The position numbers were made by a program, and so were the translations under genes. The notes under the pieces are model-generated. The model had not been told where the DNA came from, did not search any database, and saw only the letters and a list, made by a program, of their open reading frames with translations. From assembly GCA_036510875.1 (NCBI GenBank), contig DATCDE010000007.1:3055-67054 (forward strand): a stretch of DNA of 64,000 nt, written 5' to 3'. This document shows positions 1 through 17,892 of the stretch, piece after piece (position 1 is the stretch's first letter; every line of letters begins with the position of its first letter). The stretch comes from Actinomycetes bacterium (GTDB lineage Bacteria > Actinomycetota > Actinomycetes > Prado026).

Positions 1-294
1 GCCAGAGTCGAGCGCGCCGAACAGCTGCTCGTCGCCGGCGTACATGGTCAGCACGACGATGCCGAGGTCCGGGCGCTGCCGCCGTGCGGCCTTGACGATG
101 TCGAGGCCGCTGCCGTCGGGGAGCCGGACGTCGACGACGACGACATCCGGGTGCAGCACCGCCAGCTGCCGTGCCGCCTCGGCGACGGATCCGGCCTCGC
201 CGATGACCTCGAAGTCCTCGTTGCGCTCGAACGCGCGACGTAGCCCCTGCCGGATCAGCTCGTGGTCGTCAACGAGCAGCACGGTCGTGGACAT
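1..294 (-). CDS. Response regulator, NarL/LuxR family, receiver domain. Partial: the C-terminus lies beyond the window start.
   Basis: Reverse-strand translation MSTTVLLVDDHELIRQGLRRAFERNEDFEVIGEAGSVAEAARQLAVLHPDVVVVDVRLPDGSGLDIV... is a classic receiver. Its start overlaps the upstream kinase stop by 26 nt. Confidence 0.8.
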   Translation of the reverse strand, partial: MSTTVLLVDDHELIRQGLRRAFERNEDFEVIGEAGSVAEAARQLAVLHPDVVVVDVRLPDGSGLDIVKAARRQRPDLGIVVLTMYAGDEQLFGALDSG

Positions 295-1951
295 GGTCAC
301 CCCCTGCGTGGCCTAAACCGTTGGGAGAGTCCGGTGCGAGCTCACCCACGACGACCTCAACGACGGTACCTCCGCCGTCGCGTGGTCTTACCGTGAGGTC
401 GGCTCCGAGTCGTCTCGCACGCTCCCTCATGATCTCCATACCGTAACTGTCGGTACGCGAGGGCCCCAACCCGAGTCCGTCGTCCTCGATTCGCAGAAAG
501 GCGTTAGGCGGGTTCGTCTGGCAGGTCACCCACAGGTTGGCCGATCTGGCGTGCTTGCGGACGTTGGTGATGGACTCCTGGGCAATGCGAAGCAGCTCCG
601 CCTCAGTCTCGGCGCGCAGCCGGTGGGGGGACTCGTCCAGGATCAGGTGGACGGTGAGGTCCGAGGTGGCGCCGATGGTCCGCACGTAGTCCGACAGAGC
701 CGCCCCCAGGCCGGTGGAGGTGTGCACCTCGCTGCGCAGGTCGAAGATGGACAGCCGCAGCTCGGAGATGATCCGGGTCAGATCGGAACGCAGACTCTGC
801 AGCGCCTGGCGCTGCTCCTCGGTAGCCGCCCGGTATGCCATGTCGTCCATGACGTACCCCAGCGAAGCCAGCTCCTGCGCTATGCCGTCGTGGATCTCTC
901 GGGCCAACCGGCGGCGCTCCTCGGCGGTCGCGATCTGGCGCACCTCGGAGAACAGCAGAGCCGTCTCGATCCGCAGGGAGGCATCCGCGAGCAGGGTCTC
1001 GGCGGCAGCAAGCTCCTCGGACGTGAACGGTTCGTCGAGCCGCTCCACGCCGAGGATGCCGATCACGCGGACCCCAACGCGCAGTGGCAGGGCGGCGGCA
1101 TAGCCGTCCTCACCGCCGGAGAACAGCCCCTGGCCACGGCTGGGACTTCCGCTGGTCCAGGCCTCAGCCCAGAGGGAGTCGGCATCGATGGATGGATGCC
1201 AGTCGACCGGCATCGCGCTGCCGAAAGCGAGCGGCACGAGCAGTCCCCCCTCCGACCGGGCGAACAACGCAGCTCGGGAGTAGGCCACTGAGCGCTGCAG
1301 GTTCTCCAGGGTCGCCTGGGCGAGGGAATAGGCGTCCAAGCCGCCGGCGAGCTGCCGGGAAACCGTGCGCAGCTGGGACAGCAACCGGTACGCGGCCTGG
1401 TAGGAGGCCTGACTCGGGTCGCTCTGGGACTCCACCCGCAGTCGGCGTGCCCACGCCGCGAGCAGCCCCGCAATGAGCGAGAGCACCAGCCACTGGCCGG
1501 CGTAGGCCGAGAACGAGCGGGGGTCCGCCTCGACCACAACGGCGGTCAGCGCGAGGACGCCGAGCGCCAAGCCCACCGACACGGATGCGACGGAGGCGCC
1601 CCACAGAAGTCCGGCGGCGACGGCTGGCGCGATCAGATACGGCATCAAGGTCGCGCCGCTCGGCTCGTTGAGCCCGATGAGGAGGGCCGCCGCACCGATC
1701 TCGATCGCCGGCCCGATCCGAGCGATCGAACGCGCCGTTGCGAGGGTGGCCCCAGCAACGATGGCCAGCAGCAACCCGAGCGGCGGCCAGGCGACGTCGA
1801 AGCCAACGAGCAGCACCAGGACGACGGCCAGCATCGTGAAGAGGCCGAGGCGCAGCCCGATCACAAAGCCACGCGGACTCCTCAGCAGGGTGCGCAGTCG
1901 CATGGGCCGACGGTTGCACACGGGCTCATAGATTGCTACGGCCGGGGCCAT
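269..1951 (-). CDS. Sensor histidine kinase: multi-TM N-terminus, GAF domain, HisKA_3 (NarX/DesK type) and HATPase_c.
   Basis: Hydrophobic N-terminus, central GAF-like segment, H-box REIHDGIAQELASL, and a C-terminal ATPase with NVRKHA...DDGLGLG motifs. The true start may be an internal Met. Confidence 0.8.
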   Translation of the reverse strand: MAPAVAIYEPVCNRRPMRLRTLLRSPRGFVIGLRLGLFTMLAVVLVLLVGFDVAWPPLGLLLAIVAGATLATARSIARIGPAIEIGAAALLIGLNEPSGATLMPYLIAPAVAAGLLWGASVASVSVGLALGVLALTAVVVEADPRSFSAYAGQWLVLSLIAGLLAAWARRLRVESQSDPSQASYQAAYRLLSQLRTVSRQLAGGLDAYSLAQATLENLQRSVAYSRAALFARSEGGLLVPLAFGSAMPVDWHPSIDADSLWAEAWTSGSPSRGQGLFSGGEDGYAAALPLRVGVRVIGILGVERLDEPFTSEELAAAETLLADASLRIETALLFSEVRQIATAEERRRLAREIHDGIAQELASLGYVMDDMAYRAATEEQRQALQSLRSDLTRIISELRLSIFDLRSEVHTSTGLGAALSDYVRTIGATSDLTVHLILDESPHRLRAETEAELLRIAQESITNVRKHARSANLWVTCQTNPPNAFLRIEDDGLGLGPSRTDSYGMEIMRERARRLGADLTVRPRDGGGTVVEVVVGELAPDSPNGLGHAGGDHVHDRAAR

Positions 1952-1991: not shown

Positions 1992-2990
1992 GTGGAGGGT
2001 TTGAGTACTCTGAGCAGCGTCCTGCATGAAGCCAACTGCAAGTTGGAACAGGGGCGCTCCGCAGCTGCCAGCGTGTGGCCGACCGGCTTCACCCCGTTGG
2101 ACGCCTACCTCAACGGTGGTCTGCGCTCGGGCGAGCTGACGCTGCTGGGCGGGCCTCAGGGTCTGGGCAAGACCACCTTGGCACTGCAGCTCCTGCGTAA
2201 CGTCGTAGCGTCCGGTCACACCGCCGTCTACTTCTCCTTCGAGCACGACGCGGTCCTGGTCCTGGAGCGGCTGCTGGCAGTCGAAGCCGGACTCGCCGGA
2301 GGGATCGAGGCTCCGACGATCCGCCAGTTCCGGGAGGCGCTGGAGGCGGCGGACGGCCAGTTGGGCGGGCTTGAGGACCGGCTGGCTGCCACCGAGGGGG
2401 GCGCCGAGGCAGTTCTCGCAGTCCGGGCGTGGGGAGACCGCCTCATGATCCATCGCTCCAACGGCACAACCACGAGCGTGCAGACCATCGCCGCGGTCGT
2501 CCAGGAGGTCCGCGCCACCCACGGCCAGCCGCCGCTCGTCGTCGTCGACTACCTGCAGAAGGTCGCGGTGCCGCTCGGTGGCCCCAGCGAGGAGGAGCGG
2601 ATCACCGATGTGGTCCAGGGGCTGAAGGACCTGGCTCTGGCCGCCGACGTGCCGGTTCTGGCCGTCGTGGCAGCGGACAAGGAGGGTATCCGGGCGGGTC
2701 GTCGACTGCGCACCCACCACCTACGCGGCGCATCGGCCTTGGCCTACGAGGCCGACGTCGTACTCGTGATGAACGACAAGTTCAACGTGGTGGCCCGACA
2801 CCACCTGGTCTACGACATCACGAATGCCGAGAGCTTCCGCAACTTCGTGGTGGTGAGCCTCGAGAAGAACCGAAATGGGCTGGACCACATCGACCTGCAG
2901 TTTCGCAAGAGGTTCGAGCGCGGTCGCTTTGACCCGGAGGGGTCCGCAGTCTCCGAGCAGCTCGTCGACGAGCGGGTCTTTGTCGAGTAG
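1992..2990 (+). CDS. Stand-alone DnaB-helicase C-terminal-like RecA-fold ATPase. It lacks the DnaB N-terminal domain.
   Basis: PTGFTPLDAYLNGGLRSGELTLLGGPQGLGKTTLALQL matches the DnaB Walker A region. EADVVLVMND...LEKNRNG resembles the DnaB C-terminal motifs. It has a GTG start and sits divergent from the kinase gene (40 bp gap). Confidence 0.6.
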   Translation: MEGLSTLSSVLHEANCKLEQGRSAAASVWPTGFTPLDAYLNGGLRSGELTLLGGPQGLGKTTLALQLLRNVVASGHTAVYFSFEHDAVLVLERLLAVEAGLAGGIEAPTIRQFREALEAADGQLGGLEDRLAATEGGAEAVLAVRAWGDRLMIHRSNGTTTSVQTIAAVVQEVRATHGQPPLVVVDYLQKVAVPLGGPSEEERITDVVQGLKDLALAADVPVLAVVAADKEGIRAGRRLRTHHLRGASALAYEADVVLVMNDKFNVVARHHLVYDITNAESFRNFVVVSLEKNRNGLDHIDLQFRKRFERGRFDPEGSAVSEQLVDERVFVE

Positions 2991-2996
2991 CCGGCC

Positions 2997-3884
2997 CTAA
3001 CGGTCCTCGGCCTTGCGCGCTGTGTAGCGGATCAGCGCCCGCGCCAGCCGGCGGACTTCGAGTGCCTCGAGGAGAAAGGCCGCCGCGTCGCGGCCCAGGC
3101 TGGCTGACTGCTCGATGTTGTCCTCCGAGAACGGCGGATTGTTGCGGCGAGCGAGGATCAGTATGCCGCCGATGTGGGGGACAGGAATGGCCAAGAGATG
3201 CCGCCAACTCGCCAACGGTGCGCCGGCCAGCATCTGCCGGGCGATGTCGGTGTCCGTTACGAGCACACCGCGGGCACCGACGCCAACGGTCTGGACCAGC
3301 CAGTGATCGATCGAGAGCTCGGATCGGGCCTCCAAGGGTCGCAAGCCTGATCCCGCGGCAACCCACCAGTGGTTCTCCTCGCGCAGCATCAGGGCACCCG
3401 CGTCAGCCTTGTTCTCCACAAGTGCCTGCTGGAGGACGACCCTGCTGACCTCCGCGACGGTGGGGAGTCGGCCCGCGCTCGGCAGAAGTGCCCGCACCAG
3501 GTCGAGGGGCGTCATGGCCGAAAGCCCGGTGGGTTTGGGCTCCCGCCGGGCGACTTGGCCAGCCCCCTCAGGGGCGGTTGGTGAGACCTGAGTCGCGTCG
3601 AGCAACCGCTCCAGCGACTGGACGAGCGACGGCTGGCTGACCGGCCGGACGACGATCGAGGTCTGCGGCGGCCGCTGGACAGGAGTGACGTCCCAGTCCG
3701 GGCTGACCAGGACCAGCGCTGGGATCGGTGCGAAGCGGTGGCGCAAGGTCGTCAACAACCGGACCGTCTCGTCGGCGGACTGAAGGTCGAGCAGGATCGC
3801 GTCGACCGATGGGGGCTCCGCTGACTCGATGACCTCGTGCTCGGACAGCACGACCGTGGTGAAGCGCGTGCCGGCCAGCCCCAT
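2997..3884 (-). CDS. Receiver-like (REC) plus GAF domain protein encoded immediately downstream of tadC.
   Basis: N-terminus TTVVLSEHEVIE...ILLDLQSADETVRLL...PALVLVS looks receiver-like. The C-terminal about 150 aa look GAF-like. ATG at 3884. The upstream part of the long ORF 2997..4481 is low-complexity R/G/P and is treated as non-coding. Confidence 0.5.
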   Translation of the reverse strand: MGLAGTRFTTVVLSEHEVIESAEPPSVDAILLDLQSADETVRLLTTLRHRFAPIPALVLVSPDWDVTPVQRPPQTSIVVRPVSQPSLVQSLERLLDATQVSPTAPEGAGQVARREPKPTGLSAMTPLDLVRALLPSAGRLPTVAEVSRVVLQQALVENKADAGALMLREENHWWVAAGSGLRPLEARSELSIDHWLVQTVGVGARGVLVTDTDIARQMLAGAPLASWRHLLAIPVPHIGGILILARRNNPPFSEDNIEQSASLGRDAAAFLLEALEVRRLARALIRYTARKAEDR

Positions 3885-3925
3885 GGCGAGCGCCGGGGTC
3901 CGGGACACCACGAGGAGTCGAGGCA

Positions 3926-4864
3926 CTACAGCTTGCCGGTCAGCGAATTGATCACCGAGATGATGGCCGGCCCGACAACGACGATCATCATGACCGGAAG
4001 GATGCAGAAGATCAACGGGAAGAGCATCTTCACGGGGACCTTCTGGGCGGCTTCCTCCGCCCGCTGCGACCTCTTGATCCGCAGCTCGTGCGACTGGATC
4101 CGCAGCACGTTGGCGATGGGGATGCCGAACGAGTCGGCCTGAACCATCGCACTGGCGAAGCTCTTCATCTCCGGCAGGTTCGCCCGGTCGCCGAGGTCGC
4201 GAATCGCCTCCGACCGGCTGCGTCCGAGTTGCATCTCCTGCAACACCCTGAAGAACTCCGAGGCCAGGGGTCCCGCGGTGTTCCTGGACACCTCCGAAAG
4301 CGCACCGTCGAAGGACTGCCCCGCCTCCACCGAGATGGTCAGCATGTCGAGGGCGTCCGGGAGATCCCGGCGAAGCTGCTCGGTGCGCTTCACCGCTCGC
4401 TCGTTCAGGACAAGGTCGGGAGTGAAGTAACCGAGGACAGAAAGCCCGACCACTGCCGCCAGGAACCACACCACCCCCCATCCGAGCACGAGCGGCAGTG
4501 CTAGCCCGATCGCGAATCCGATGATCAGTCCCAGTGCCTTGAAGGCCAGGATCCGGTCGACGTTCCAGTGAGCAGGGTTTCCTGCCAGGTCCAGCCGCCG
4601 TCTGATGCGGGCAGCCTGCTCCGCGGGAGTGATGCGCCGGCCCATCTCGGTGAGCTGGGCGAAACCCGGCTTCGTCACTCGGTCTGCAAACGGTCGGTCC
4701 ATCGCACCACGTAGCTCCGGTGGCGTCGCCCGCATCGTGCTGACCGCCTCGAGCGACCGGCCCACACCTGTCGGTTCTCGGCGCAGGACCCCGAAGAAGC
4801 CGAGAAAGAGCAGCGTCCCCACGAAGAAGGCCCCGAGGCCGGCGAGCAGCAGCATCCCGCTCAC
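3926..4864 (-). CDS. tadC: Tad pilus assembly inner-membrane protein TadC (T2SS-F domain).
   Basis: TM-rich about 312 aa protein with T2SSF-like loops (GQSFDGALSEVSRNTAGPLASEF, LRIQSHELRIKRSQRAEEAAQK). Its start overlaps the tadB stop. Confidence 0.8.
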   Translation of the reverse strand: MSGMLLLAGLGAFFVGTLLFLGFFGVLRREPTGVGRSLEAVSTMRATPPELRGAMDRPFADRVTKPGFAQLTEMGRRITPAEQAARIRRRLDLAGNPAHWNVDRILAFKALGLIIGFAIGLALPLVLGWGVVWFLAAVVGLSVLGYFTPDLVLNERAVKRTEQLRRDLPDALDMLTISVEAGQSFDGALSEVSRNTAGPLASEFFRVLQEMQLGRSRSEAIRDLGDRANLPEMKSFASAMVQADSFGIPIANVLRIQSHELRIKRSQRAEEAAQKVPVKMLFPLIFCILPVMMIVVVGPAIISVINSLTGKL

Positions 4865-4865
4865 G

Positions 4866-6860
4866 TCAGTACTCCACCCTCACCACTCGACGGAGCCACA
4901 CGACGCCGACGATGAACAACACCAAACCGACGGTCAGCATGACCAACCCGAGCGGCGTCGTGAACAGCAGTGACAGGTATCCCGGCCGCACCAGCGCGAG
5001 AAAGACCGCAAAGATGAACGGCAGCAAGCCGATGATCCACGCCGACAGCCGACCCTCCGCGGACAGGACACGAACCTGGCGACGGAGCCGTTCCCGTTCC
5101 CGCAGAGTGCTGGCCACGTTGCGCAGCACCTCCGCCAGGTTACCGCCGACCTCCCGCTGGATCCGGATCGCCATCACCGTCCAACGGAAGTCCGTGCTGT
5201 CCATTCGCTCGCCGATCCCTGCGAGCGCGTCCTCGATCGGGACGCCGAGCCGAGCTTCCACGAGCGCATGGTTGAACTCCCCGGCGATGGGGTCGGCGCC
5301 TTCTCGGACGACAGAGTCGACGGCTTGGGGGAGGGAGTAGCCCGCCTGCAGACCGCCAGCCATGAGCTGCAGGGTGTCCGCCAGCTGGTCGTTGAAGGCG
5401 CTCAGCCGCCGGTTCCACCGCACGCTCAGATACGTCCAGGGGAGCAGCGCCCCCAGCCCCACCGCGATGAGCGCGGCAAGCAGTCGACCGGTGAGCAGTC
5501 CGACGAGCAAGCCGCTGCCGAGCGTAATGCCCGCATGGATGATCACCCACTCCGCGGGTTGGAGCGGGACAGCCGCTCGGTCCAACCGCTGGGCAAGTTC
5601 TACCTCCACGTCTCGGTTCTTGGTGACGCGGCCGGCGAACTCCACCGCGGATCGGGCGACCGCGCTGTCCCCGAGCGCCGGTGTGGACTCCGACTCCTTG
5701 ACTGGCAGCTTTCCGCGCAGAGTGTAGATCGCGATCCGTCGGTCGACGGCGCTGAGCTGGTCGCCGCCGAGGTCACGCATCGCCACTCCGAGCAGGATGG
5801 CAAGAGAGAGGAACAGCACGCCCAGCGCGGACCAGAGTGCGGGGCGCGTCAGATGGGCGTACCAGGGGGCGGTGACAGCGATGGGGCCCGCGGCAGCCGG
5901 GGTGGATGGCGAGCTGCTGGGGGAACCCTGGGTGCCCAGCAGCGGGACGAACACTGTGTCCGACAGCTGGGTGGTTCCGGCGTAGGCCTCGATGGTCAGC
6001 TGCTGGCTGTTCAGCAGGACAGTCGGCACGTCGACCAGAACCTGGAGCTGGTTGCTGATCGCGTTCGCACTCTGCACGAAGATCGTGCTGAGGTTGCTCG
6101 CCTGGGCGGTGGCCACCACCTGGCCCTTGCCAGCCGCCGTCAGAGTCTTGAGGGTCGCCAGCTGGCCCTGGCCCGCGCCCAGGGAGACGGCATCGACGAC
6201 GACCTGTGACCTGCCGATCGCGTTGGTGGCATCGGCCAGCGTCGCTTGGCTGGAACCGTCGTCCGCGCCGTCGCTGAGCACTAGAACCTGCCGGATCCCG
6301 GTACTGCCAGCGCTGGCTACAGCCAGCCGGACTCCGTCATAGAGCGCGGTACCACCGTTGGGTGGCGCCGACAGCCGGTCGATCGCAGCCCGGACGGCGA
6401 TCCGGTCGAGCGTGGGTGACAGGGCAAGCTGGGGGCGGCCGGCGAAGGTGACCAGCCCGACGCGTACCGATGCTGGCACCGAGGCGAGGAACTGCGAAGC
6501 TGCGGCCTTGGCGGCTGCTATCGGAGCTCCGTTCATGCTGCCCGAGGTGTCCATCGCGAGAATGGCGATCCGATGGACCGCGGTGTCCCCCTGGCCGACG
6601 ACCGTCGCGGTCGCGGGAAGGGCCGCGCCACCCACGCTGGCAGTGACGCTGGACGTGCTGATCGTCGTTCCTGTCGGGAGCCCGGCGGCTTCGAAGAATG
6701 CGGTGACCTGGGCTCCGTCGCTCGTCGGCTGAACCTTGGCCGAGACGATGCGACCGACCGGTCCGTTCGTTGCGGCCAAGGCCACCCCGGTGGGCATCAA
6801 CCCAACGGCCACCAGCAGCCCCAGCACAGTGAAGAGGCGACGGAACGGGAAAGCAGTCAC
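4866..6860 (-). CDS. tadB: Fusion protein: signal peptide, von Willebrand factor A (VWA) domain, Ser/Pro-rich linker, then TadB (T2SS-F domain).
   Basis: N-terminal MTAFPFRRLFTVLGLLVAVGLMPTGVALA is followed by a VWA MIDAS motif (ILAMDTSGSM...LVTFAGRP...LSDGADD). The C-terminal about 300 aa are a typical TadB T2SSF domain. Confidence 0.75.
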   Translation of the reverse strand: MTAFPFRRLFTVLGLLVAVGLMPTGVALAATNGPVGRIVSAKVQPTSDGAQVTAFFEAAGLPTGTTISTSSVTASVGGAALPATATVVGQGDTAVHRIAILAMDTSGSMNGAPIAAAKAAASQFLASVPASVRVGLVTFAGRPQLALSPTLDRIAVRAAIDRLSAPPNGGTALYDGVRLAVASAGSTGIRQVLVLSDGADDGSSQATLADATNAIGRSQVVVDAVSLGAGQGQLATLKTLTAAGKGQVVATAQASNLSTIFVQSANAISNQLQVLVDVPTVLLNSQQLTIEAYAGTTQLSDTVFVPLLGTQGSPSSSPSTPAAAGPIAVTAPWYAHLTRPALWSALGVLFLSLAILLGVAMRDLGGDQLSAVDRRIAIYTLRGKLPVKESESTPALGDSAVARSAVEFAGRVTKNRDVEVELAQRLDRAAVPLQPAEWVIIHAGITLGSGLLVGLLTGRLLAALIAVGLGALLPWTYLSVRWNRRLSAFNDQLADTLQLMAGGLQAGYSLPQAVDSVVREGADPIAGEFNHALVEARLGVPIEDALAGIGERMDSTDFRWTVMAIRIQREVGGNLAEVLRNVASTLRERERLRRQVRVLSAEGRLSAWIIGLLPFIFAVFLALVRPGYLSLLFTTPLGLVMLTVGLVLFIVGVVWLRRVVRVEY

Positions 6861-8254
6861 TACGATCGCCCGTACCTCTCGAACGCGAAGATCCGCGGGT
6901 CGACATCAACGCCTGCGTCCGACAGCTTCTCCAGGAACCGCGGGCGCAGCCCGGTGGACTTCAGCTGGCCCAGCGAGCGGCCGTGCTCGTCGAAGCCCAT
7001 GTGGTGGTCGAAGACGAACAGGTCCTGAAGAGTGATGATGTCGCCCTCCATCCCGACAACCTCAGACACGTGCGTGATGTGGCGCGTGCCGTCCTTGAAG
7101 CGGGCCTGGTGGACGATCAGGTCGATGGCGCTGGACACCTGTTCGCGGATCGCGCGCAGCGGCAGGTCGTAGCCGGCAAAGAGCACCATCGTCTCGATGC
7201 GAGCGAGGGTGTCCCGGGGGCTGTTCGCGTGCACGGTGCAGATCGACCCGTCGTGTCCGGTGTTCATCGCCTGCAGCATGTCCAGCGCGGCGGCGTCGCG
7301 CACCTCGCCGATGACGATGCGGTCAGGGCGCATGCGGAGGGCATTGCGCACGAGGTCCCGGACGGCGATCTCGCCCTTGCCCTCGATGTTCGGTGGGCGG
7401 GCCTCCAGCCTGATCACGTGCTCCTGGTGCATCTGGAGCTCCGCGGCGTCCTCGATGGTGATGATCCGCTCGTCGTTCGGGATGAAGGCGGACAGCACGT
7501 TCAGGGTGGTGGTCTTGCCGGCGCCAGTTCCGCCTGACACAAGGATGTTCAGCCGGCCGAGTACGCACGCCTCAAGGAACTCCGACACCGCGCGGCTCAG
7601 GGTGCCGAACCCGACCAGGTCGTCGACTTCGTAGGGGTCTGCGGCGAACTTGCGGATCGTCAGGGCGCTGCCATCCACCGCGAGTGGCGGGATGATCGCG
7701 TTGACCCGGCTGCCATCCTGCAGGCGGGCGTCGACCATGGGGCTCGACTCGTCGACCCGGCGACCAACGCGTCCGACGATCTTGTCGATGGTGCGACGCA
7801 AGTGGGCGTCGTCCGCGAACTGGGCGTCCACGGGGTAGATCCGCCCGCCCCGCTCGACATAGATGCGGTCGTAGCCGTTGACCATGACCTCGGTCACGTC
7901 CGCGTCCCGAAGGTACGGCTCGAGCGGCCCGTATCCGAGGATGTCGTCAGCGATCTCCTGTGAGATGCGAGCGCGGTCCGCCACTGTCAGCGGCGTCTCC
8001 TCCTTGGCCAGCACCTCCTGCAGGGTCGCTCGGACGCGCTGCTCGAGCTCGGGCTGGGTCAGTCGGGAGTCGTAGAGGTGCGGCCCGAGGGTCTCGAGGA
8101 GCGAGCGGTGGACCTCGCGCTTGAGGCCCGCGAACGGGTCGGCTCCGCGGGGGACGCGCGCTCCGGGCCCCTGCCGGCTGAGCGAGTCATTGTCGGGGGT
8201 GATCTCGGTGCCACGGGCCCGCCGAGCTTCGGCGAGGCGGTCGGAGAGGCTCAT
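6860..8254 (-). CDS. tadA: Tad/Flp pilus secretion ATPase TadA/CpaF.
   Basis: Walker A GGTGAGKTT, ...IEDAAEL..., GEVRD, TGHDGSICTVHANS: the canonical CpaF/VirB11-like signature. Confidence 0.9.
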   Translation of the reverse strand: MSLSDRLAEARRARGTEITPDNDSLSRQGPGARVPRGADPFAGLKREVHRSLLETLGPHLYDSRLTQPELEQRVRATLQEVLAKEETPLTVADRARISQEIADDILGYGPLEPYLRDADVTEVMVNGYDRIYVERGGRIYPVDAQFADDAHLRRTIDKIVGRVGRRVDESSPMVDARLQDGSRVNAIIPPLAVDGSALTIRKFAADPYEVDDLVGFGTLSRAVSEFLEACVLGRLNILVSGGTGAGKTTTLNVLSAFIPNDERIITIEDAAELQMHQEHVIRLEARPPNIEGKGEIAVRDLVRNALRMRPDRIVIGEVRDAAALDMLQAMNTGHDGSICTVHANSPRDTLARIETMVLFAGYDLPLRAIREQVSSAIDLIVHQARFKDGTRHITHVSEVVGMEGDIITLQDLFVFDHHMGFDEHGRSLGQLKSTGLRPRFLEKLSDAGVDVDPRIFAFERYGRS

Positions 8255-9453
8255 CTCGAGGACTTCCTTCCGAATCGGTGGCGCCGGTCATGGCGCAATG
8301 GAGAGGGAACGGAGTCGTCAACCGACGGCCCCACGACGACGTACCGCTCGGCGAACTGGCGGATCGCCTGGCTCACCGGGTGATTCGGCTGGTCCAGGGC
8401 GATCGGCACGCCGCGGTTGATGGTGGACGGGACCTCGCGAGAGGAGGGGATCTGCGCGACGATCTTGGCGTTGAGGGTCTTCTCGACGTCGGCCGCGGTC
8501 AGCCCCACCTTGGAGTCCGCCCTGTTGAGTACGACCACCCACCGGTCGCGGGAGTAGTTGAGGAGCTCGAGGGTCTCGAGGGTGAGCTTGAGGTTCTTGA
8601 TCGCAGGGATGTCCAAGGTGGCGATGTTCGCGATGATGTCGCTGCGGTCGAAGGCGGCCAGCACCTGGTCGTCGAACGCGGGCGGGGTGTCGACGACGAC
8701 GTAGTCGAACTGGTCGCGCAGTATCTCGAGCATCCGGCCGATCAGCTCGGCCGGGATGTGGCCTGCCGTGCCTGGCTCGACGGGCGCCACGAGAGCCGAC
8801 AGCCCAGGGGAGTGCCGGGTGATCAGGGATTTCAGGCCATCGGCGTCCAGGCTGTCACCCAGCGCAACCGCATCGGCGAGTGTGTGCGCGGGGAACAACT
8901 GGAGGACGATCGCCACATCCCCGAAGGCCAGGTCGAGGTCGAGAATGCAGACCTCCCGCCGGCCGTGGTCAGCGAGGATCGCGGCGAGGTTGGTGGCCAG
9001 GGTGGTCTTTCCGCACCCGCCCTTCGCCGAGAAGACGGTAACGATATGACCACGGTGCCCCGGGCTGGCATGCTCGCCCCCGCGAGTGTCTGCACTGCGC
9101 AGCCGTCGGGACAGGACCCGCGAGCGCCGGGCTGCCTCGGCTAGACCGGACAGGTCACGCTCCTCGACGACGTCCCGGACGCCGGCTCGGAGAGCCTCGG
9201 CCAGCACTGAGGCGTCTACCCGGCGGCGGACCAGGATGACCCCGATGCTTGGGTGCAGCACGCGCACCTCCGACGCGACACTCAGCGCAGTCGGCAGGTC
9301 GACGGTCGGACCGAACACCACCGTGTCCTCGGTCAGCCCTGGGACCAGGTGGTGTCGCAGGGCGTCGACGGACGGCAGGACCTCGGTGTCCGAGCCCAGC
9401 GCCGTCCGCAGGATGTCAGCGATCGAAGGGTCCAGGTCGACCACGATGGCCAT
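8251..9453 (-). CDS. tadZ: TadZ/CpaE: N-terminal receiver-like domain plus ParA/MinD-type ATPase.
   Basis: VFSAKGGCGKTTLATNLA deviant Walker A and DTPPAFDD motifs. Confidence 0.85.
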   Translation of the reverse strand: MAIVVDLDPSIADILRTALGSDTEVLPSVDALRHHLVPGLTEDTVVFGPTVDLPTALSVASEVRVLHPSIGVILVRRRVDASVLAEALRAGVRDVVEERDLSGLAEAARRSRVLSRRLRSADTRGGEHASPGHRGHIVTVFSAKGGCGKTTLATNLAAILADHGRREVCILDLDLAFGDVAIVLQLFPAHTLADAVALGDSLDADGLKSLITRHSPGLSALVAPVEPGTAGHIPAELIGRMLEILRDQFDYVVVDTPPAFDDQVLAAFDRSDIIANIATLDIPAIKNLKLTLETLELLNYSRDRWVVVLNRADSKVGLTAADVEKTLNAKIVAQIPSSREVPSTINRGVPIALDQPNHPVSQAIRQFAERYVVVGPSVDDSVPSPLRHDRRHRFGRKSSR

Positions 9454-9498: not shown

Positions 9499-10236
9499 TC
9501 AGCCAAACACGTTTGTTGAGGTGACGGCTCCACCGGGGCTGACCTTGGAGTCCGGGGTGAGCAGGGCGAAGTACAGCTGACCCTGTTGGGTGGCGTAGAT
9601 GATCTTGGTGGCCTCCTGCTGGGTGAGGGCCAGGGTGAGGATCGTCCGCGGGATCTGCTCTGAGTTCTGCTGCCCGCTGGAGTCGGTCGTGGTCTTGGTC
9701 ACCGTGGTCGTGTTGCCGACCCCGACGACGGTCACCCGGGGGAGCAGGATCTGGGTGACGCTGGTTTGGGCCGCGGCGGTTCCGGACGAGATGGTTGCGA
9801 AAACCGAGACCTCGGACCCGTTGCTCACGAACCCGGCTACCCGCTCCGGGTCGCCCAGCTGGACGCTCACCGCGATCTTCCCGGCTGGGATCGGCAGCGT
9901 GCTCTGCGAGCCGGCAGGACCGAACTGCTGCTGGAGGATCTGCTCGCCAGGGAAGATCGGAGACAGGGCCACCAGGGCTGCCACCGCGGTGATGTCACTC
10001 AGGGCTCCTTTTGCGACCGAGTTCTGGGCCACCTCGCGCGGTTCAAGTGCCCCGCTTTCGGCAGCCGAGGAGCCCGTCGTACCGGCGGAGATCTGGGACT
10101 TGGCGAAGAGTACCTTGACCAGCTGTTGCCCGGCTGCTGCGCGCTGGTCGGCTCCTCGGGCGTAGAGGAACACCAGGCCGGTTCCCAGTGCCGCGACAAG
10201 TAGCGCGGCCACGAGCAGGATCGTTCTGCGTCCCAT
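9499..10236 (-). CDS. cpaB: Flp pilus assembly protein CpaB/RcpC (SAF domain).
   Basis: N-terminal TM (MGRRTILLVAALLVAALGTGLVFLYA) and a Thr/Ser/Gly-rich beta-type domain typical of CpaB. RBS GAGAGG lies upstream. Confidence 0.75.
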   Translation of the reverse strand: MGRRTILLVAALLVAALGTGLVFLYARGADQRAAAGQQLVKVLFAKSQISAGTTGSSAAESGALEPREVAQNSVAKGALSDITAVAALVALSPIFPGEQILQQQFGPAGSQSTLPIPAGKIAVSVQLGDPERVAGFVSNGSEVSVFATISSGTAAAQTSVTQILLPRVTVVGVGNTTTVTKTTTDSSGQQNSEQIPRTILTLALTQQEATKIIYATQQGQLYFALLTPDSKVSPGGAVTSTNVFG

Positions 10237-16330: not shown

Positions 16331-17404
16331 TCACTTGTAGAGCGAGACTCCGGTCACACCCATGTCGCAGCTGGAGCCGAAAGCGCATGACCCGCCAGCT
16401 CCTGGGTAGCTGCTCGTCGAGTAGTTGACATACTGGAATTCCAAGAAGTCGACCTTGTTGTCGATGTATTTGGCCGCCTTGCTGGCATCCCAGCAGGATC
16501 CCCTGCCGATCTTGTTGTTCAGGGAGTATCCGCAGATCTTCGCGCCCACGAACGCCACGGTGTCGAACGATGGGTTGTTGACGCCGCGCGTGTGGTTGTA
16601 CCGGGTGACGACGGGCAGTAGCACGACTTGATCGAGCAGCGAGGTCAGCGGTCCGTCTATCTCGCCGGGGCGCGGCATTCGTCCAGCGGGGAGTTGCCGG
16701 TCGATTGTGATCGCTCCGGGGTAGCCATTTCGGGTCCAGTCCGCGAGGTCGTTGGCGCCATACGCGCCCCCGTTGAAGTCGACCGTCCCCCAGTTCCCGG
16801 GCTCGGTCGTTCCGCAGATCCCGATCTTGTTGTTCAGGTCGGCTACGAAAGTCTGGTTCGGGCGCGCCATGGCGTTCTGCGCCGTGGCTAGACAGATGGC
16901 GAAGGGACGCAGGCCGGTCACCGTGGTGGCCGGCCCGATCCGCGCGGTTGCCTGCTGCTTCGGCGTCAACGGCTGGGGGTTTCCACCGAACAGCTTCAGT
17001 GCCGACAGGAAGAACGACTGGACCTCCTTGGAGTTGCTGACCTGAACCTCGATAGCAGTTCCGTTGTCCACGCAGCGGGGTTGGCCGACGACGATGCTCG
17101 AGCCTGGCGCTGTCCCCTGTTCCGAAGCCTGAGCCGCGCTGATGGCCGCAGAGATGGCCGTAGACGTCAGCACCTCCTCGCAGTTCCCGGGGTTGATCGG
17201 CGCGACTTCACCGATCCGTCCAGCAGCCGCCAGCGCGGCACCGTCGGCCGCGACCGAGAGGTTGCGTTTGGTGGCCCAGGCGGCGCTGACGTCGACCGCG
17301 GCTGCTGCCATCAGCATCAGCAACGGCAACAGGATCGCTACCAGGGCCGCCACCGCACCCTCGTCGCGCCGAGATGGCACCCGTCGACTCAGCTGAACTC
17401 GCAT
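16331..17404 (-). CDS. tadG: TadG-like (TadE/G pseudopilin family) Flp pilus assembly protein.
   Basis: ATG at 17404 gives MRVQLSRRVPSRRDEGAVAALVAILLPLLMLMAAAAVDVSAAW (TadE-like N-terminus). The ORF upstream of it is arginine-rich junk. Confidence 0.65.
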   Translation of the reverse strand: MRVQLSRRVPSRRDEGAVAALVAILLPLLMLMAAAAVDVSAAWATKRNLSVAADGAALAAAGRIGEVAPINPGNCEEVLTSTAISAAISAAQASEQGTAPGSSIVVGQPRCVDNGTAIEVQVSNSKEVQSFFLSALKLFGGNPQPLTPKQQATARIGPATTVTGLRPFAICLATAQNAMARPNQTFVADLNNKIGICGTTEPGNWGTVDFNGGAYGANDLADWTRNGYPGAITIDRQLPAGRMPRPGEIDGPLTSLLDQVVLLPVVTRYNHTRGVNNPSFDTVAFVGAKICGYSLNNKIGRGSCWDASKAAKYIDNKVDFLEFQYVNYSTSSYPGAGGSCAFGSSCDMGVTGVSLYK

Positions 17405-17892
17405 CGATACACCGCCTTGGAGGACAGCGTGATCGTGGGTCCGAGACCCAGCGGCAGAATGAACTCTGCCGGGTAGGTGGCCTTGACGATCAGGCTCGCA
17501 TTCTCGCCGTTGGACGAGTCGAGACTGTTGGTGCACGGCACCGAGGTACTCCTCGGGTTGGCGCCGGTGCCGCACGCGTTGCTGCCGTCGGACCGGGTCA
17601 CCGTGACGTTGATCAGGTTCTGCCGGTTGACCACTCCGAGGGTTCCGGCTGCAGCGGCGCGGACGTTGGCCACCACGGTGTTGCACTGCCGGTCGATGCC
17701 CCCGCCGGCGACCACCGCGGCTCGGGCACCCTCGCGTACCGCGTTGTTCACCGTCAGCTGGGCGCTGAATACCCAGCCGAAACTGATGATCCCGAAGAGC
17801 AGGAGCAGGAGGATTGGCAAAATCAGCACGAACTCCACAGCAGCCGCGCCGTCCGCGCCGAGAGCCCGCAGGCTGGCCGACCCTCGTCCCAT
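17389..17892 (-). CDS. tadE: TadE-like pseudopilin.
   Basis: AAAVEFVLILPILLLLLFGIISFGWVFSAQ is the TadE N-terminal motif. RBS AGGTGGGGGG is present. The stop overlaps the tadG start. Confidence 0.75.
   Translation of the reverse strand: MGRGSASLRALGADGAAAVEFVLILPILLLLLFGIISFGWVFSAQLTVNNAVREGARAAVVAGGGIDRQCNTVVANVRAAAAGTLGVVNRQNLINVTVTRSDGSNACGTGANPRSTSVPCTNSLDSSNGENASLIVKATYPAEFILPLGLGPTITLSSKAVYRCEFS

What the first reader, a model, noticed from the sequence alone, without database searches (positions are those of the whole stretch)
4866..6860. VWA domain fused to the N-terminus of TadB
The inner-membrane platform protein carries a signal peptide or TM, a complete von Willebrand A domain with an intact MIDAS motif (DTSGSM...T...DGxD), and a Ser/Pro-rich linker, all ahead of the TadB T2SSF domain. 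A metal-dependent adhesion/interaction module on the Tad platform is unusual and could couple pilus assembly to a partner such as a pilin, pseudopilin or signal. The predicted topology places the VWA domain outside the membrane.
Basis: seen in the sequence. Interest (0 to 1): 0.6.

Follow-up and report, generated by a model that had tools for sequence, protein, structure and literature searches.

The report
Tad pilus platform carrying VWA domain
The membrane "platform" protein TadB of a Tad/Flp pilus machine in an uncultured actinobacterium carries a complete metal-binding VWA domain on the outer side of the membrane; the fusion is real, old and widespread in Actinomycetota, but I found no paper that describes or tests it.

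Summary
Window 4866-6860 (-) is one uninterrupted 664-aa ORF. It reads: Sec-type signal peptide, beta-sandwich with an inserted VWA domain, Ala/Pro/Ser/Thr-rich linker, then a full TadB-type T2SSF platform protein. The MIDAS residues D104, S106, S108 and T171 are invariant in 75 homologues.

The gene lies in a tightly packed cpaB-cpaE-tadA-(VWA)tadB-tadC operon. A two-component system and two flp pilin genes follow, the pilin genes just beyond the window edge.

The fusion is not an oddity of this genome. 71-73 of the 80 best related genome loci have it, spanning Actinomycetes, Acidimicrobiia and Coriobacteriia. Double-VWA versions exist. An unfused Kineosporiaceae clade looks like a secondary loss.

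The TadG-like pseudopilins of these loci lack a VWA domain. This differs from proteobacterial TadG/CpaL.

The short linker (14-37 aa) keeps the VWA close to the membrane, so it is not a surface adhesin. My best reading (about 0.4) is a fixed, MIDAS-dependent docking or anchoring module for the minor-pilin complex or fibre base, sitting above the TadB-TadC platform. A sensor role or a cell-wall anchoring role remains possible.

No paper describing this architecture was found. I rate it a new variant of a known kind, of moderate interest.

The parts
4866..6860 (-). VWA-TadB fusion gene, 664 aa plus stop
   Evidence: Single ORF. Pfam VWA_2/VWA + T2SSF. The identical gene is called in an independent assembly, L081.
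6774..6860 (-). Sec-type signal peptide, residues 1-29 (MTAFPFRRLFTVLGLLVAVGLMPTGVALA|A)
   Evidence: Hydropathy and charge. AxA is conserved in 69/75 and 67/75 homologues.
6591..6764 (-). N-terminal beta strands of the ectodomain, residues 33-90
   Evidence: AF2 strands 35-87 with pLDDT >90.
6054..6572 (-). VWA domain, residues 97-269, with MIDAS D104/S106/S108 (nt 6537-6551), T171 and D197
5943..6047 (-). C-terminal beta strands of the ectodomain, residues 272-306. They probably complete a sandwich with the N-terminal strands.
   Evidence: AF2 strands 272-304. The long Foldseek alignments (320-362 columns) to ArnB and 4fx5, larger VWA-containing proteins, extend beyond the VWA core.
5847..5942 (-). 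Flexible Ser/Pro/Ala/Thr-rich linker, residues 307-338
   Evidence: pLDDT <50 at 312-331. Length is 14-37 aa in homologues, 22% identity, A/P/S/T rich.
4869..5846 (-). TadB platform core, residues 339-664: TM1, cytoplasmic N-domain, TM hairpin, T2SSF domain (nt 4998-5372), two C-terminal TM helices
   Evidence: Pfam T2SSF. Hydropathy. AF2 helices. 73% mean identity in the T2SSF part.
3926..4864 (-). tadC, the paralogous platform protein (312 aa, no ectodomain)
   Evidence: Pfam T2SSF 3.3e-20. Present in 80/80 related loci.
6860..8254 (-). tadA/cpaF secretion ATPase
   Evidence: Pfam T2SSE 5.6e-62. NCBIfam TadA-family hit at 338 bits, below that model's cut-off.
8251..9453 (-). cpaE/tadZ-like ParA/MinD ATPase
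   Evidence: Pfam ParA/CbiA/AAA_31.
9499..10236 (-). cpaB/rcpC
   Evidence: Pfam RcpC 4.2e-21. NCBIfam pilus_cpaB 93 bits, above the cut-off of 71.
269..1951 (-). GAF-HisKA_3 histidine kinase, lying between tadC and the flp genes
   Evidence: Pfam. Syntenic in 56/80 loci.
1..294 (-). First 98 residues of a LuxR-type response regulator, cut by the window edge. Two flp pilin genes follow, outside the window.
   Evidence: L081 gene table shows Response_reg+GerE followed by two Flp_Fap genes.
17389..17892 (-). TadE-like pseudopilin (167 aa)
   Evidence: Pfam TadE 2.6e-19. Motif scan.
16331..17392 (-). TadG-like pseudopilin (353 aa) without a VWA domain
   Evidence: Pfam finds only PF13400. All 16 Pfam-annotated homologues of 17 carry only PF13400. 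The AF2 model has no VWA-like PDB match.

Best explanation
What it is (near certain, about 0.97). This is the TadB platform subunit of a complete Tad/Flp (type IVc) pilus machine. A Sec-exported ectodomain has been fused to its N-terminus. The ectodomain is a beta-sandwich carrying a canonical MIDAS-type VWA domain, joined to the first TadB transmembrane helix by a short flexible linker.

How it most likely works (inferred, about 0.4). TadB and TadC are thought to form a trimer of heterodimers beneath the nascent fibre. This is a model for Caulobacter CpaG/CpaH (PMC13170226). On that model, about three VWA domains would sit within roughly 5-13 nm of the outer face of the membrane, around the site where the TadE/TadG-type minor pilins prime the Flp fibre. 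I propose that the metal ion of the MIDAS site binds an acidic side chain of a machine component. The most likely partner is the minor-pilin priming complex or the base of the Flp fibre. The VWA would then dock or anchor that component on the platform during initiation and after retraction. This would make it a stationary counterpart of the VWA domain that TadG/CpaL or PilY1 bring to the pilus in diderm bacteria.

Shown: the architecture, topology, MIDAS conservation, operon membership, phyletic spread, and the absence of any other VWA in the loci. Inferred: the stoichiometry, the identity of the ligand and the docking role.
For: The architecture and the extracytoplasmic location are established.

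The MIDAS residues are invariant, although the VWA as a whole is only 48% identical and the linker 22%. This argues that metal-mediated ligand binding is under selection.

The gene is translationally coupled within cpaB-cpaE-tadA-tadB-tadC. In other genera it sits in single flp-tadE-tadG-cpaB-cpaE-tadA-tadB-tadC operons. It is therefore part of the pilus machine.

The closest relatives of the ectodomain are almost all TadB fusions: 94 of 145 representative clusters have both parts, and most of the rest are short fragments. The module is specialised for this context.

The TadG-like proteins of 10 VWA-TadB loci, the window included, have no VWA. No other MIDAS motif occurs within +-10 kb in 80 loci or anywhere in the window. 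In Proteobacteria, by contrast, TadG/CpaL carry the VWA and are proposed to prime, tip or anchor the pilus (PMC4858521; PMC13170226; 10.1101/2025.02.12.637803).

The linker of 14-37 residues limits the reach of the VWA to the near-membrane zone.
Against: No interaction was modelled or measured.

A whole clade of close relatives (Kineosporiaceae, more than 100 clusters) has lost the ectodomain. Its loci still encode cpaB, TadE and a TadG-like protein with no VWA. The VWA is therefore not essential for assembly, and there is no complementary TadG-VWA / TadB-VWA pattern inside the phylum.

Double-VWA variants would fit a ligand-capturing or sensing role equally well.

The AF2 pTM of 0.50 means that the position of the ectodomain relative to the membrane core is not defined.
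Confidence: 0.4

Rival explanations
1. Trans-membrane sensor. The VWA binds an envelope or environmental ligand, or senses force or retraction of the fibre. It passes this through TM1 to the cytoplasmic N-domain of TadB. This would modulate the TadA/CpaF motor or the neighbouring two-component system.
For: The VWA domains of PilY1 and CpaL are discussed as mechanosensors or surface sensors (10.1101/2025.02.12.637803).

A GAF-HisKA_3 kinase and a LuxR-type regulator lie between tadC and the flp genes in 56/80 loci. In the window's clade a KaiC/DnaB_C-like ATPase and a GAF protein lie there as well.

The ectodomain is directly continuous with TM1 and with the cytoplasmic domain that is expected to contact the ATPase.
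Against: The 14-37-residue disordered linker is a poor transmitter of conformational change. The kinase has its own membrane and GAF modules, and nothing links it physically to TadB. The two-component system is absent from the flp-tadE-tadG-cpaB... type loci, which still have the fusion.
Confidence: 0.2
2. Cell-wall tether or alignment element. In these monoderm bacteria, which have no secretin, the VWA would bind a wall component (an anionic polymer or a peptidoglycan-associated group). This would fix the platform under a passage through the wall, working with CpaB.
For: No secretin gene was seen in the loci, whereas cpaB is retained. A MIDAS site binds carboxylate or other anionic groups (general knowledge of VWA domains). 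The Ala/Pro/Ser/Thr-rich linker resembles wall-spanning spacers. The ectodomain diverges faster than the core, as expected for a partner that varies between taxa.
Against: The fusion also occurs across classes with different wall chemistry (Acidimicrobiia, Coriobacteriia, Actinomycetes). The MIDAS and neighbouring motifs are nevertheless invariant, which suggests a conserved partner. Kineosporiaceae manage without the domain. No peptidoglycan-binding domain is present.
Confidence: 0.2
3. Surface adhesin. The VWA itself would bind host or substrate molecules, as pilus-tip VWA adhesins do (RrgA, SpaC, Mfa5, S. sanguinis PilB).
Against: The VWA is tethered to an inner-membrane helix by only 14-37 residues. 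It has no pilin module and no sortase signal. It therefore cannot reach beyond a Gram-positive wall (inference from wall thickness, general knowledge).
Confidence: 0.04
4. Artefact. Two separate genes (a secreted VWA protein and tadB) would have been merged by a sequencing or assembly error.
For: Some MAG loci do show frameshift-broken versions (L046, L065, L079). Some database entries are truncated fragments.
Against: The same single ORF occurs in an independent assembly and in all 120 listed homologues. It occurs in isolate genomes of Nocardioides, Pimelobacter simplex ATCC 6946, Intrasporangium, Lentzea and others, including a complete Krasilnikovia chromosome. The broken versions are the exceptions.
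Confidence: 0.01

Closest known systems
TadB / CpaG platform protein of Tad (type IVc) pili (Aggregatibacter, Caulobacter, Bifidobacterium breve, Micrococcus luteus)
   Same: It has a T2SSF domain and a polytopic helical core. It is paired with the paralogue TadC, directly downstream of the TadA/CpaF ATPase, in an operon with cpaB and cpaE and with flp, tadE and tadG nearby.
   Different: The N-terminus carries a signal peptide and a roughly 310-residue extracytoplasmic beta-sandwich+VWA module. The descriptions of characterised TadB/CpaG proteins that I read mention no such module (PMC13170226, PMC6916266). Close unfused relatives are about 350 aa.
TadG / CpaL: the VWA-containing, pilin-like minor component of proteobacterial Tad pili
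   Same: It is a MIDAS-type VWA domain associated with a Tad machine and located outside the cytoplasmic membrane. CpaL is placed on top of the CpaG/CpaH platform before assembly (PMC13170226; 10.1101/2025.02.12.637803).
   Different: There is no pilin-like N-terminal helix and no class III signal. The VWA is permanently tethered to the platform and cannot travel with the fibre. There is no beta-barrel insertion inside the VWA. The TadG-like proteins of these loci lack a VWA.
PilY1 / PilC1 (type IVa pili) and the modular minor pilin PilB of Streptococcus sanguinis
   Different: Those proteins are fibre-borne, either tip-associated or pilin-fused. This one is fixed to the platform. Sequence identity is only 12-15%.
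BatA/BatB-type membrane-anchored bacterial VWA proteins, and the VWA protein 4fx5 of Catenulispora acidiphila
   Different: Those proteins are not part of a secretion or pilus platform. No MoxR-type partner is present in the locus.
ArnB (archaeal VWA regulator of the archaellum; Sec23/24-like)
   Different: ArnB is a cytoplasmic, phosphorylation-controlled regulator that is not encoded in type IV pilus loci (PMC4858521). Here the domain is exported and fused to the machine. The resemblance is one of fold, not of role.

Membership tests
TadB-type T2SSF platform protein (Tad / type IVc pilus) | T2SSF (GspF/PilC-type) domain above the family threshold | tested here: met
   PF00482 at 497-621, 74.1 bits against a cut-off of 25.2.
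TadB-type T2SSF platform protein (Tad / type IVc pilus) | Polytopic membrane protein with an N-out first helix and the T2SSF domain in the cytoplasm | tested here: met
   Hydropathy and positive-inside pattern. AF2 helices. This is a prediction only, with no experimental topology.
TadB-type T2SSF platform protein (Tad / type IVc pilus) | Encoded next to a TadA/CpaF ATPase and a second T2SSF paralogue (TadC), with Flp pilin and TadE/TadG pseudopilins | tested here: met
   Order cpaB-cpaE-tadA-tadB-tadC. flp x2 downstream in L081. TadE and TadG-like at 16331-17892. Same order in 77-80 of 80 loci.
TadB-type T2SSF platform protein (Tad / type IVc pilus) | Assignment as TadB rather than TadC | tested here: inconclusive
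   This rests only on gene order (the first T2SSF gene after tadA) and on the JGI name 'tight adherence protein B' given to homologues. No TadB-specific model matched.
VWA domain with MIDAS | Rossmann-like alpha/beta VWA fold | tested here: met
VWA domain with MIDAS | Complete MIDAS signature DxSxS...T...D | tested here: met
   D104, S106, S108, T171 and D197. The first four are invariant in 75/75 sequences and D197 in 74/75.
VWA domain with MIDAS | Binding of a divalent cation and of an acidic ligand | not testable with these tools
   Needs biochemistry or a structure with metal bound.
TadG/CpaL-type VWA minor pilin-like protein | N-terminal pilin-like module (class III signal, G/A-x4-E/F motif and a hydrophobic alpha1N helix) ahead of the VWA | tested here: not met
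   The N-terminus is a Sec signal peptide with AxA. There is no PF13400 or TadE hit in this protein. The Flp/TadE motif scan of the window found only the TadE gene.
Sortase-pilus tip adhesins with VWA (RrgA, SpaC, GBS104) | C-terminal LPXTG sorting signal and Ig-like (CnaB-type) stalk domains | tested here: not met
   The C-terminus is the TadB membrane core. No such Pfam domains were found. The similarity is limited to the VWA fold.
BatA/BatB - MoxR-associated VWA proteins | Genomic pairing with a MoxR AAA+ ATPase or a bat operon | tested here: not met
   No MoxR or bat genes appear among the neighbours.

The most novel reading that the evidence does not exclude
The platform-tethered VWA could be a built-in 'fibre-state' sensor and latch. 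It would capture the TadE/TadG tip complex, or the fibre base, through its MIDAS site when the pilus is fully retracted or under load. It would report this across the membrane through TadB to the bidirectional TadA/CpaF motor, and indirectly to the embedded kinase-regulator-flp module. Monoderm Actinomycetota would then perform at the machine base the surface sensing that diderm bacteria perform with tip-borne PilY1/CpaL. That would be the first case of a type IV filament platform protein with a direct extracytoplasmic ligand-binding function.
Probability: 0.15. Interest if true: 0.8.

Novelty: new variant of a known kind. Interest (0 to 1): 0.5.

Why it matters
Platform proteins (PilC/GspF/TadB/TadC) are the least understood core parts of type IV filament machines. 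They are usually pictured as membrane-embedded couplers between the cytoplasmic ATPase and the pilins, with no functional domain outside the membrane.

Here a strictly conserved metal-dependent binding domain is fused to the outer face of TadB, in hundreds of actinobacterial lineages. This implies that the platform itself engages a partner on the far side of the membrane.

The fusion gives a genetically simple handle for asking where and how minor pilins, or the fibre base, sit on the platform. Possible tools are MIDAS point mutants, ectodomain deletions, and the natural unfused Kineosporiaceae as a control. It also gives a way to ask how Tad pili cross a thick monoderm wall without a secretin.

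It also corrects annotation. These proteins are currently labelled only 'type II secretion system F family protein' or 'VWA domain-containing protein'.

Tried and rejected
1. Split-gene (Rosetta-stone) forms. The roughly 270-470-aa 'ectodomain-only' hits looked like stand-alone VWA proteins. On reading, the seven sequences I read are contig-end truncations or frameshifted calls, and the rest are of similar length. I did not count them as separate subunits.

2. Displacement of the VWA from TadG to TadB. TadG-like proteins of VWA-TadB loci do lack a VWA. But the TadG of an unfused Kineosporia locus lacks one too, and no other VWA is nearby. A strict either/or pattern within the phylum is therefore not supported. 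The contrast holds only against Proteobacteria, and there it rests on the literature.

3. Literature. Seven full-text searches combining TadB, TadG, TadC, T2SSF, platform, Actinoplanes with VWA or von Willebrand found no description of the fusion. The co-occurrences I opened were unrelated.

4. The afdb50 fold library was unavailable.

5. ArnB as a functional analogue. It is the top structural and sequence match, but it is cytoplasmic. I treated it as fold similarity only.

6. NCBIfam gave no specific family for the fusion. All three hits were far below their cut-offs.

7. Organism identity. The best genome-collection relative is only 51% identical. The window matches an ENA metagenome contig exactly. 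The organism remains an unnamed actinomycete. Its nearest named relatives by this protein are MAGs labelled Actinomycetia, Sporichthyaceae, Frankiaceae and Mycobacteriales.
Full report
1. THE OBSERVATION

Window 4866-6860 on the minus strand is a single 664-codon ORF with a GTG start. Third-position G+C is high (0.82) over the whole stop-to-stop frame. The GTG shares one base with the TAG stop of the upstream ATPase gene ('cgTAGTGact'). The next gene starts one base after its stop. The gene is therefore embedded in a translationally coupled operon.

Pfam finds VWA_2 (residues 100-198, E 5e-15), VWA (101-260, 1.2e-9) and T2SSF (497-621, 1.3e-20). All three are above their curated cut-offs.

The MIDAS signature is complete: D104-T-S106-G-S108, T171 and D197.

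An identical gene is called on an independent ENA metagenome contig (L081). Proteins 97% and 85% identical have the same length of 664 aa.

2. ANATOMY AND TOPOLOGY

Residues 1-29 (MTAFPFRRLFTVLGLLVAVGLMPTGVALA) have the n/h/c layout of a Sec signal peptide. The A27-x-A29 site is conserved in 69 and 67 of 75 homologues.

The AF2 model was built on a 75-sequence alignment and has mean pLDDT 84. It shows these elements:
- beta strands at 35-87;
- a VWA alpha/beta domain at 97-269;
- further strands at 272-304;
- a disordered stretch at 312-331 (GSPSSSPSTPAAAGP);
- an all-helical membrane and cytoplasmic core from 339 onward.

Hydropathy gives TM helices at about 339-365, 438-480 (a hairpin), 606-625 and 637-655. 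K/R-rich segments follow TM1 and occur at the C-terminus. The ectodomain 30-338 is therefore outside and the T2SSF domain inside. This holds whether or not the signal peptide is cleaved.

TadC (3926-4864) starts directly with the equivalent N-out helix and has no ectodomain.

3. CONTEXT

The operon is cpaB/rcpC (9499-10236), a cpaE/tadZ-like ATPase (8251-9453), tadA/cpaF (6860-8254), VWA-tadB and tadC.

Downstream come the following genes:
- a GAF-containing protein (2997-3911);
- a KaiC/DnaB_C-like ATPase on the other strand (1992-2990);
- a GAF-HisKA_3 kinase (269-1951);
- the first 98 codons of a LuxR-type response regulator, cut by the window edge.

L081 continues past the edge. It shows the rest of the regulator, two Flp pilin genes (G|ATATEY motif) and a 491-aa polytopic membrane protein with no Pfam hit.

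A TadE-like and a TadG-like pseudopilin lie 6 kb upstream of cpaB, at 16331-17892.

This is therefore a complete Tad/Flp system and the fusion protein is its TadB. The B-versus-C assignment rests on gene order and on JGI's naming of homologues.

4. DISTRIBUTION

All 120 listed homologues of the full protein carry VWA+T2SSF at about 620-680 aa.

A scan of one genome per species found at least 594 relatives. Among the 80 best loci, tblastn finds the ectodomain directly upstream of the TadB core in 73. A MIDAS motif is there in 71.

Carriers include isolates of Nocardioides, Pimelobacter simplex, Kribbella, Catellatospora, Intrasporangium, Phycicoccus, Knoellia, Flexivirga, Terrabacter, Lentzea, Spirillospora and Krasilnikovia. 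They also include MAGs of Acidimicrobiia and Coriobacteriia.

A search of 1.84 billion representative proteins with the ectodomain alone gave 64 clusters at E<1e-30. Of the 145 new top representatives, 94 contain both the ectodomain and the TadB core. Four of these have two ectodomain copies. These are about 890-900 aa with 2xVWA+T2SSF, and one is from Egibacteraceae. Most of the remainder are truncated or frameshifted fragments.

Two locus layouts occur:
- cpaB-cpaE-tadA-tadB-tadC-kinase-regulator-flp, as here and in Nocardioidaceae;
- flp-tadE-tadG-cpaB-cpaE-tadA-tadB-tadC, in Intrasporangiaceae, Micromonosporaceae, Lentzea and Coriobacteriia.

Conservation is uneven: T2SSF 73%, VWA 48%, flanking beta strands 29-34%, linker 22%. 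The linker is 14-37 residues long and A/P/S/T-rich. Yet the MIDAS residues are invariant.

5. LOSS, NOT GAIN, IN THE UNFUSED RELATIVES

Kineosporia and related Kineosporiaceae have a TadB of about 350 aa in the same synteny. In Kineosporia L054 it starts on the tadA stop codon. Its short N-terminal 'GPSPDD' looks like the end of the linker in fused proteins. This clade is large: 118 of the 120 listed hits have T2SSF only.

I built a neighbour-joining tree of TadB cores rooted on TadC. All deep branches are fused. The unfused clade is nested beside the window's clade, in 48 of 60 bootstrap replicates. The simplest reading is an old fusion with secondary loss.

There are caveats. The method is NJ only. 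Sampling was limited to relatives of two queries. More distant unfused TadBs (for example of Bifidobacterium or Mycobacterium) were not included.

6. WHAT IT PROBABLY DOES

Shown: a canonical, selectively maintained MIDAS site is held outside the membrane on the platform of a Tad pilus machine.

Inferred from the Caulobacter model of a (CpaG-CpaH)3 platform with the minor pilins CpaJ/K/L sitting on it (PMC13170226): about three VWA domains surround the site of fibre initiation.

The tether of 14-37 residues allows at most roughly 5-13 nm of reach if fully extended. This is my estimate at about 0.35 nm per residue. It is less than the thickness of a Gram-positive wall (general knowledge). A role as a surface adhesin is therefore unlikely, despite the fold similarity to tip adhesins.

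In Proteobacteria the VWA of the Tad system is carried by the pilin-like TadG/CpaL. It has been proposed to anchor, prime or tip the pilus and to take part in surface sensing (PMC4858521; 10.1101/2025.02.12.637803; PMC13170226).

In the actinobacterial loci the TadG-like proteins have only the PF13400 N-terminal module. This was tested on 10 loci, the window included, on 17 homologues and on an AF2 model that has no VWA-like match. No other MIDAS motif lies within +-10 kb or in the window.

My preferred explanation (about 0.4) is a stationary docking or anchoring module. Its MIDAS ion would bind an acidic residue of the minor-pilin complex or of the fibre base.

The main counter-evidence is that Kineosporiaceae lost the domain without any visible replacement. 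The role is therefore accessory rather than essential.

The rivals are as follows:
- a trans-membrane sensor (0.2), favoured by the embedded kinase-regulator-flp arrangement and weakened by the floppy linker;
- a cell-wall tether or alignment element working with CpaB in the absence of a secretin (0.2);
- a surface adhesin (0.04);
- an artefact (0.01).

7. COMPARISON WITH WHAT IS KNOWN, AND NOVELTY

The protein is a member of the TadB/T2SSF platform family and of the MIDAS-VWA superfamily. All testable defining features are met.

It is not a TadG/CpaL-type protein, because it has no pilin module. It is not a sortase-pilus adhesin, because it has no LPXTG signal or stalk domains. It is not a Bat/MoxR-type VWA protein, because it has no MoxR partner.

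Databases already hold many copies, with both Pfam domains precomputed. They are named only 'type II secretion system F family protein', 'tight adherence protein B' or 'VWA domain-containing protein'.

Seven full-text searches found no paper that mentions the fusion. Reviews of monoderm type IV pili and the in situ Tad architecture paper describe platform proteins without any such domain (PMC6916266, PMC13170226). The library does not cover most subscription-journal papers, so a prior mention cannot be excluded.

I class it as a new variant of a known kind. It is a real, ancient and widespread architecture that has not been studied, with moderate surprise value for pilus specialists. It offers a clear route to experiments on what the platform contacts outside the membrane.

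Interest: 0.5.

Noticed in passing
window 269-1951 (-) and 1-294 (-); L081 14910-17823: A GAF-HisKA_3 histidine kinase and a LuxR-type response regulator sit between tadC and two flp pilin genes. The kinase is syntenic in 56 of 80 related loci; the regulator and the flp genes behind it were read directly in L009 and L081, and flp-like motifs follow the kinase in most of these loci. This suggests a dedicated regulator of pilin expression embedded in the Tad locus.
   Followed up: partly
window 1992-2990 (+) and 2997-3911 (-): A KaiC/DnaB_C/AAA_25-like ATPase and a 304-aa protein with a C-terminal GAF_2-like domain are inserted between tadC and the kinase. They are found in only 12 and 7 of 80 related loci. 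KaiC-family ATPases are also linked to archaeal type IV pilus loci (PMC4858521).
   Followed up: partly
L081 17834-19309 (just outside the window's left edge): A 491-aa polytopic membrane protein with no Pfam hit lies immediately after the two flp genes. It might modify or handle the pilins (for example by glycosylation), but nothing was tested.
   Followed up: no
window 16331-17892 (-): The TadE-like and TadG-like pseudopilin genes are separated from cpaB by about 6 kb of unrelated genes: acyl-CoA synthetase, SRPBCC proteins, an ArsA-like ATPase and a ROK kinase. The C-terminal domain of the TadG-like protein (Cys-rich, with the conserved motif GLRPFA.C...GNWG.VDF) has no Pfam family and no structural match in the PDB.
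   Followed up: partly
P0136, P0143, P0194, P0251 (about 890-900 aa; P0136 from Egibacteraceae): These TadB variants have two tandem VWA ectodomains ahead of the T2SSF core.
   Followed up: partly
P0183 (1185 aa): This relative of the ectodomain has two VWA domains fused to a family-2 (cellulose-synthase-like) membrane glycosyltransferase. It is another case of VWA modules attached to a membrane-embedded polymer-exporting machine.
   Followed up: no
L001 13237-13944: A highly repetitive stretch lies between tadC and the GAF-protein gene in a related MAG. It translates as long runs of GGAGFF or ARASSA, depending on the frame. Its nature is unknown.
   Followed up: no
L054 9941-11002 (Kineosporia sp. 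R_H_3): This unfused TadB starts with a GTG on the tadA stop codon. It keeps a 'GPSPDD' remnant that resembles the end of the linker in fused proteins, which is consistent with deletion of the ectodomain.
   Followed up: partly
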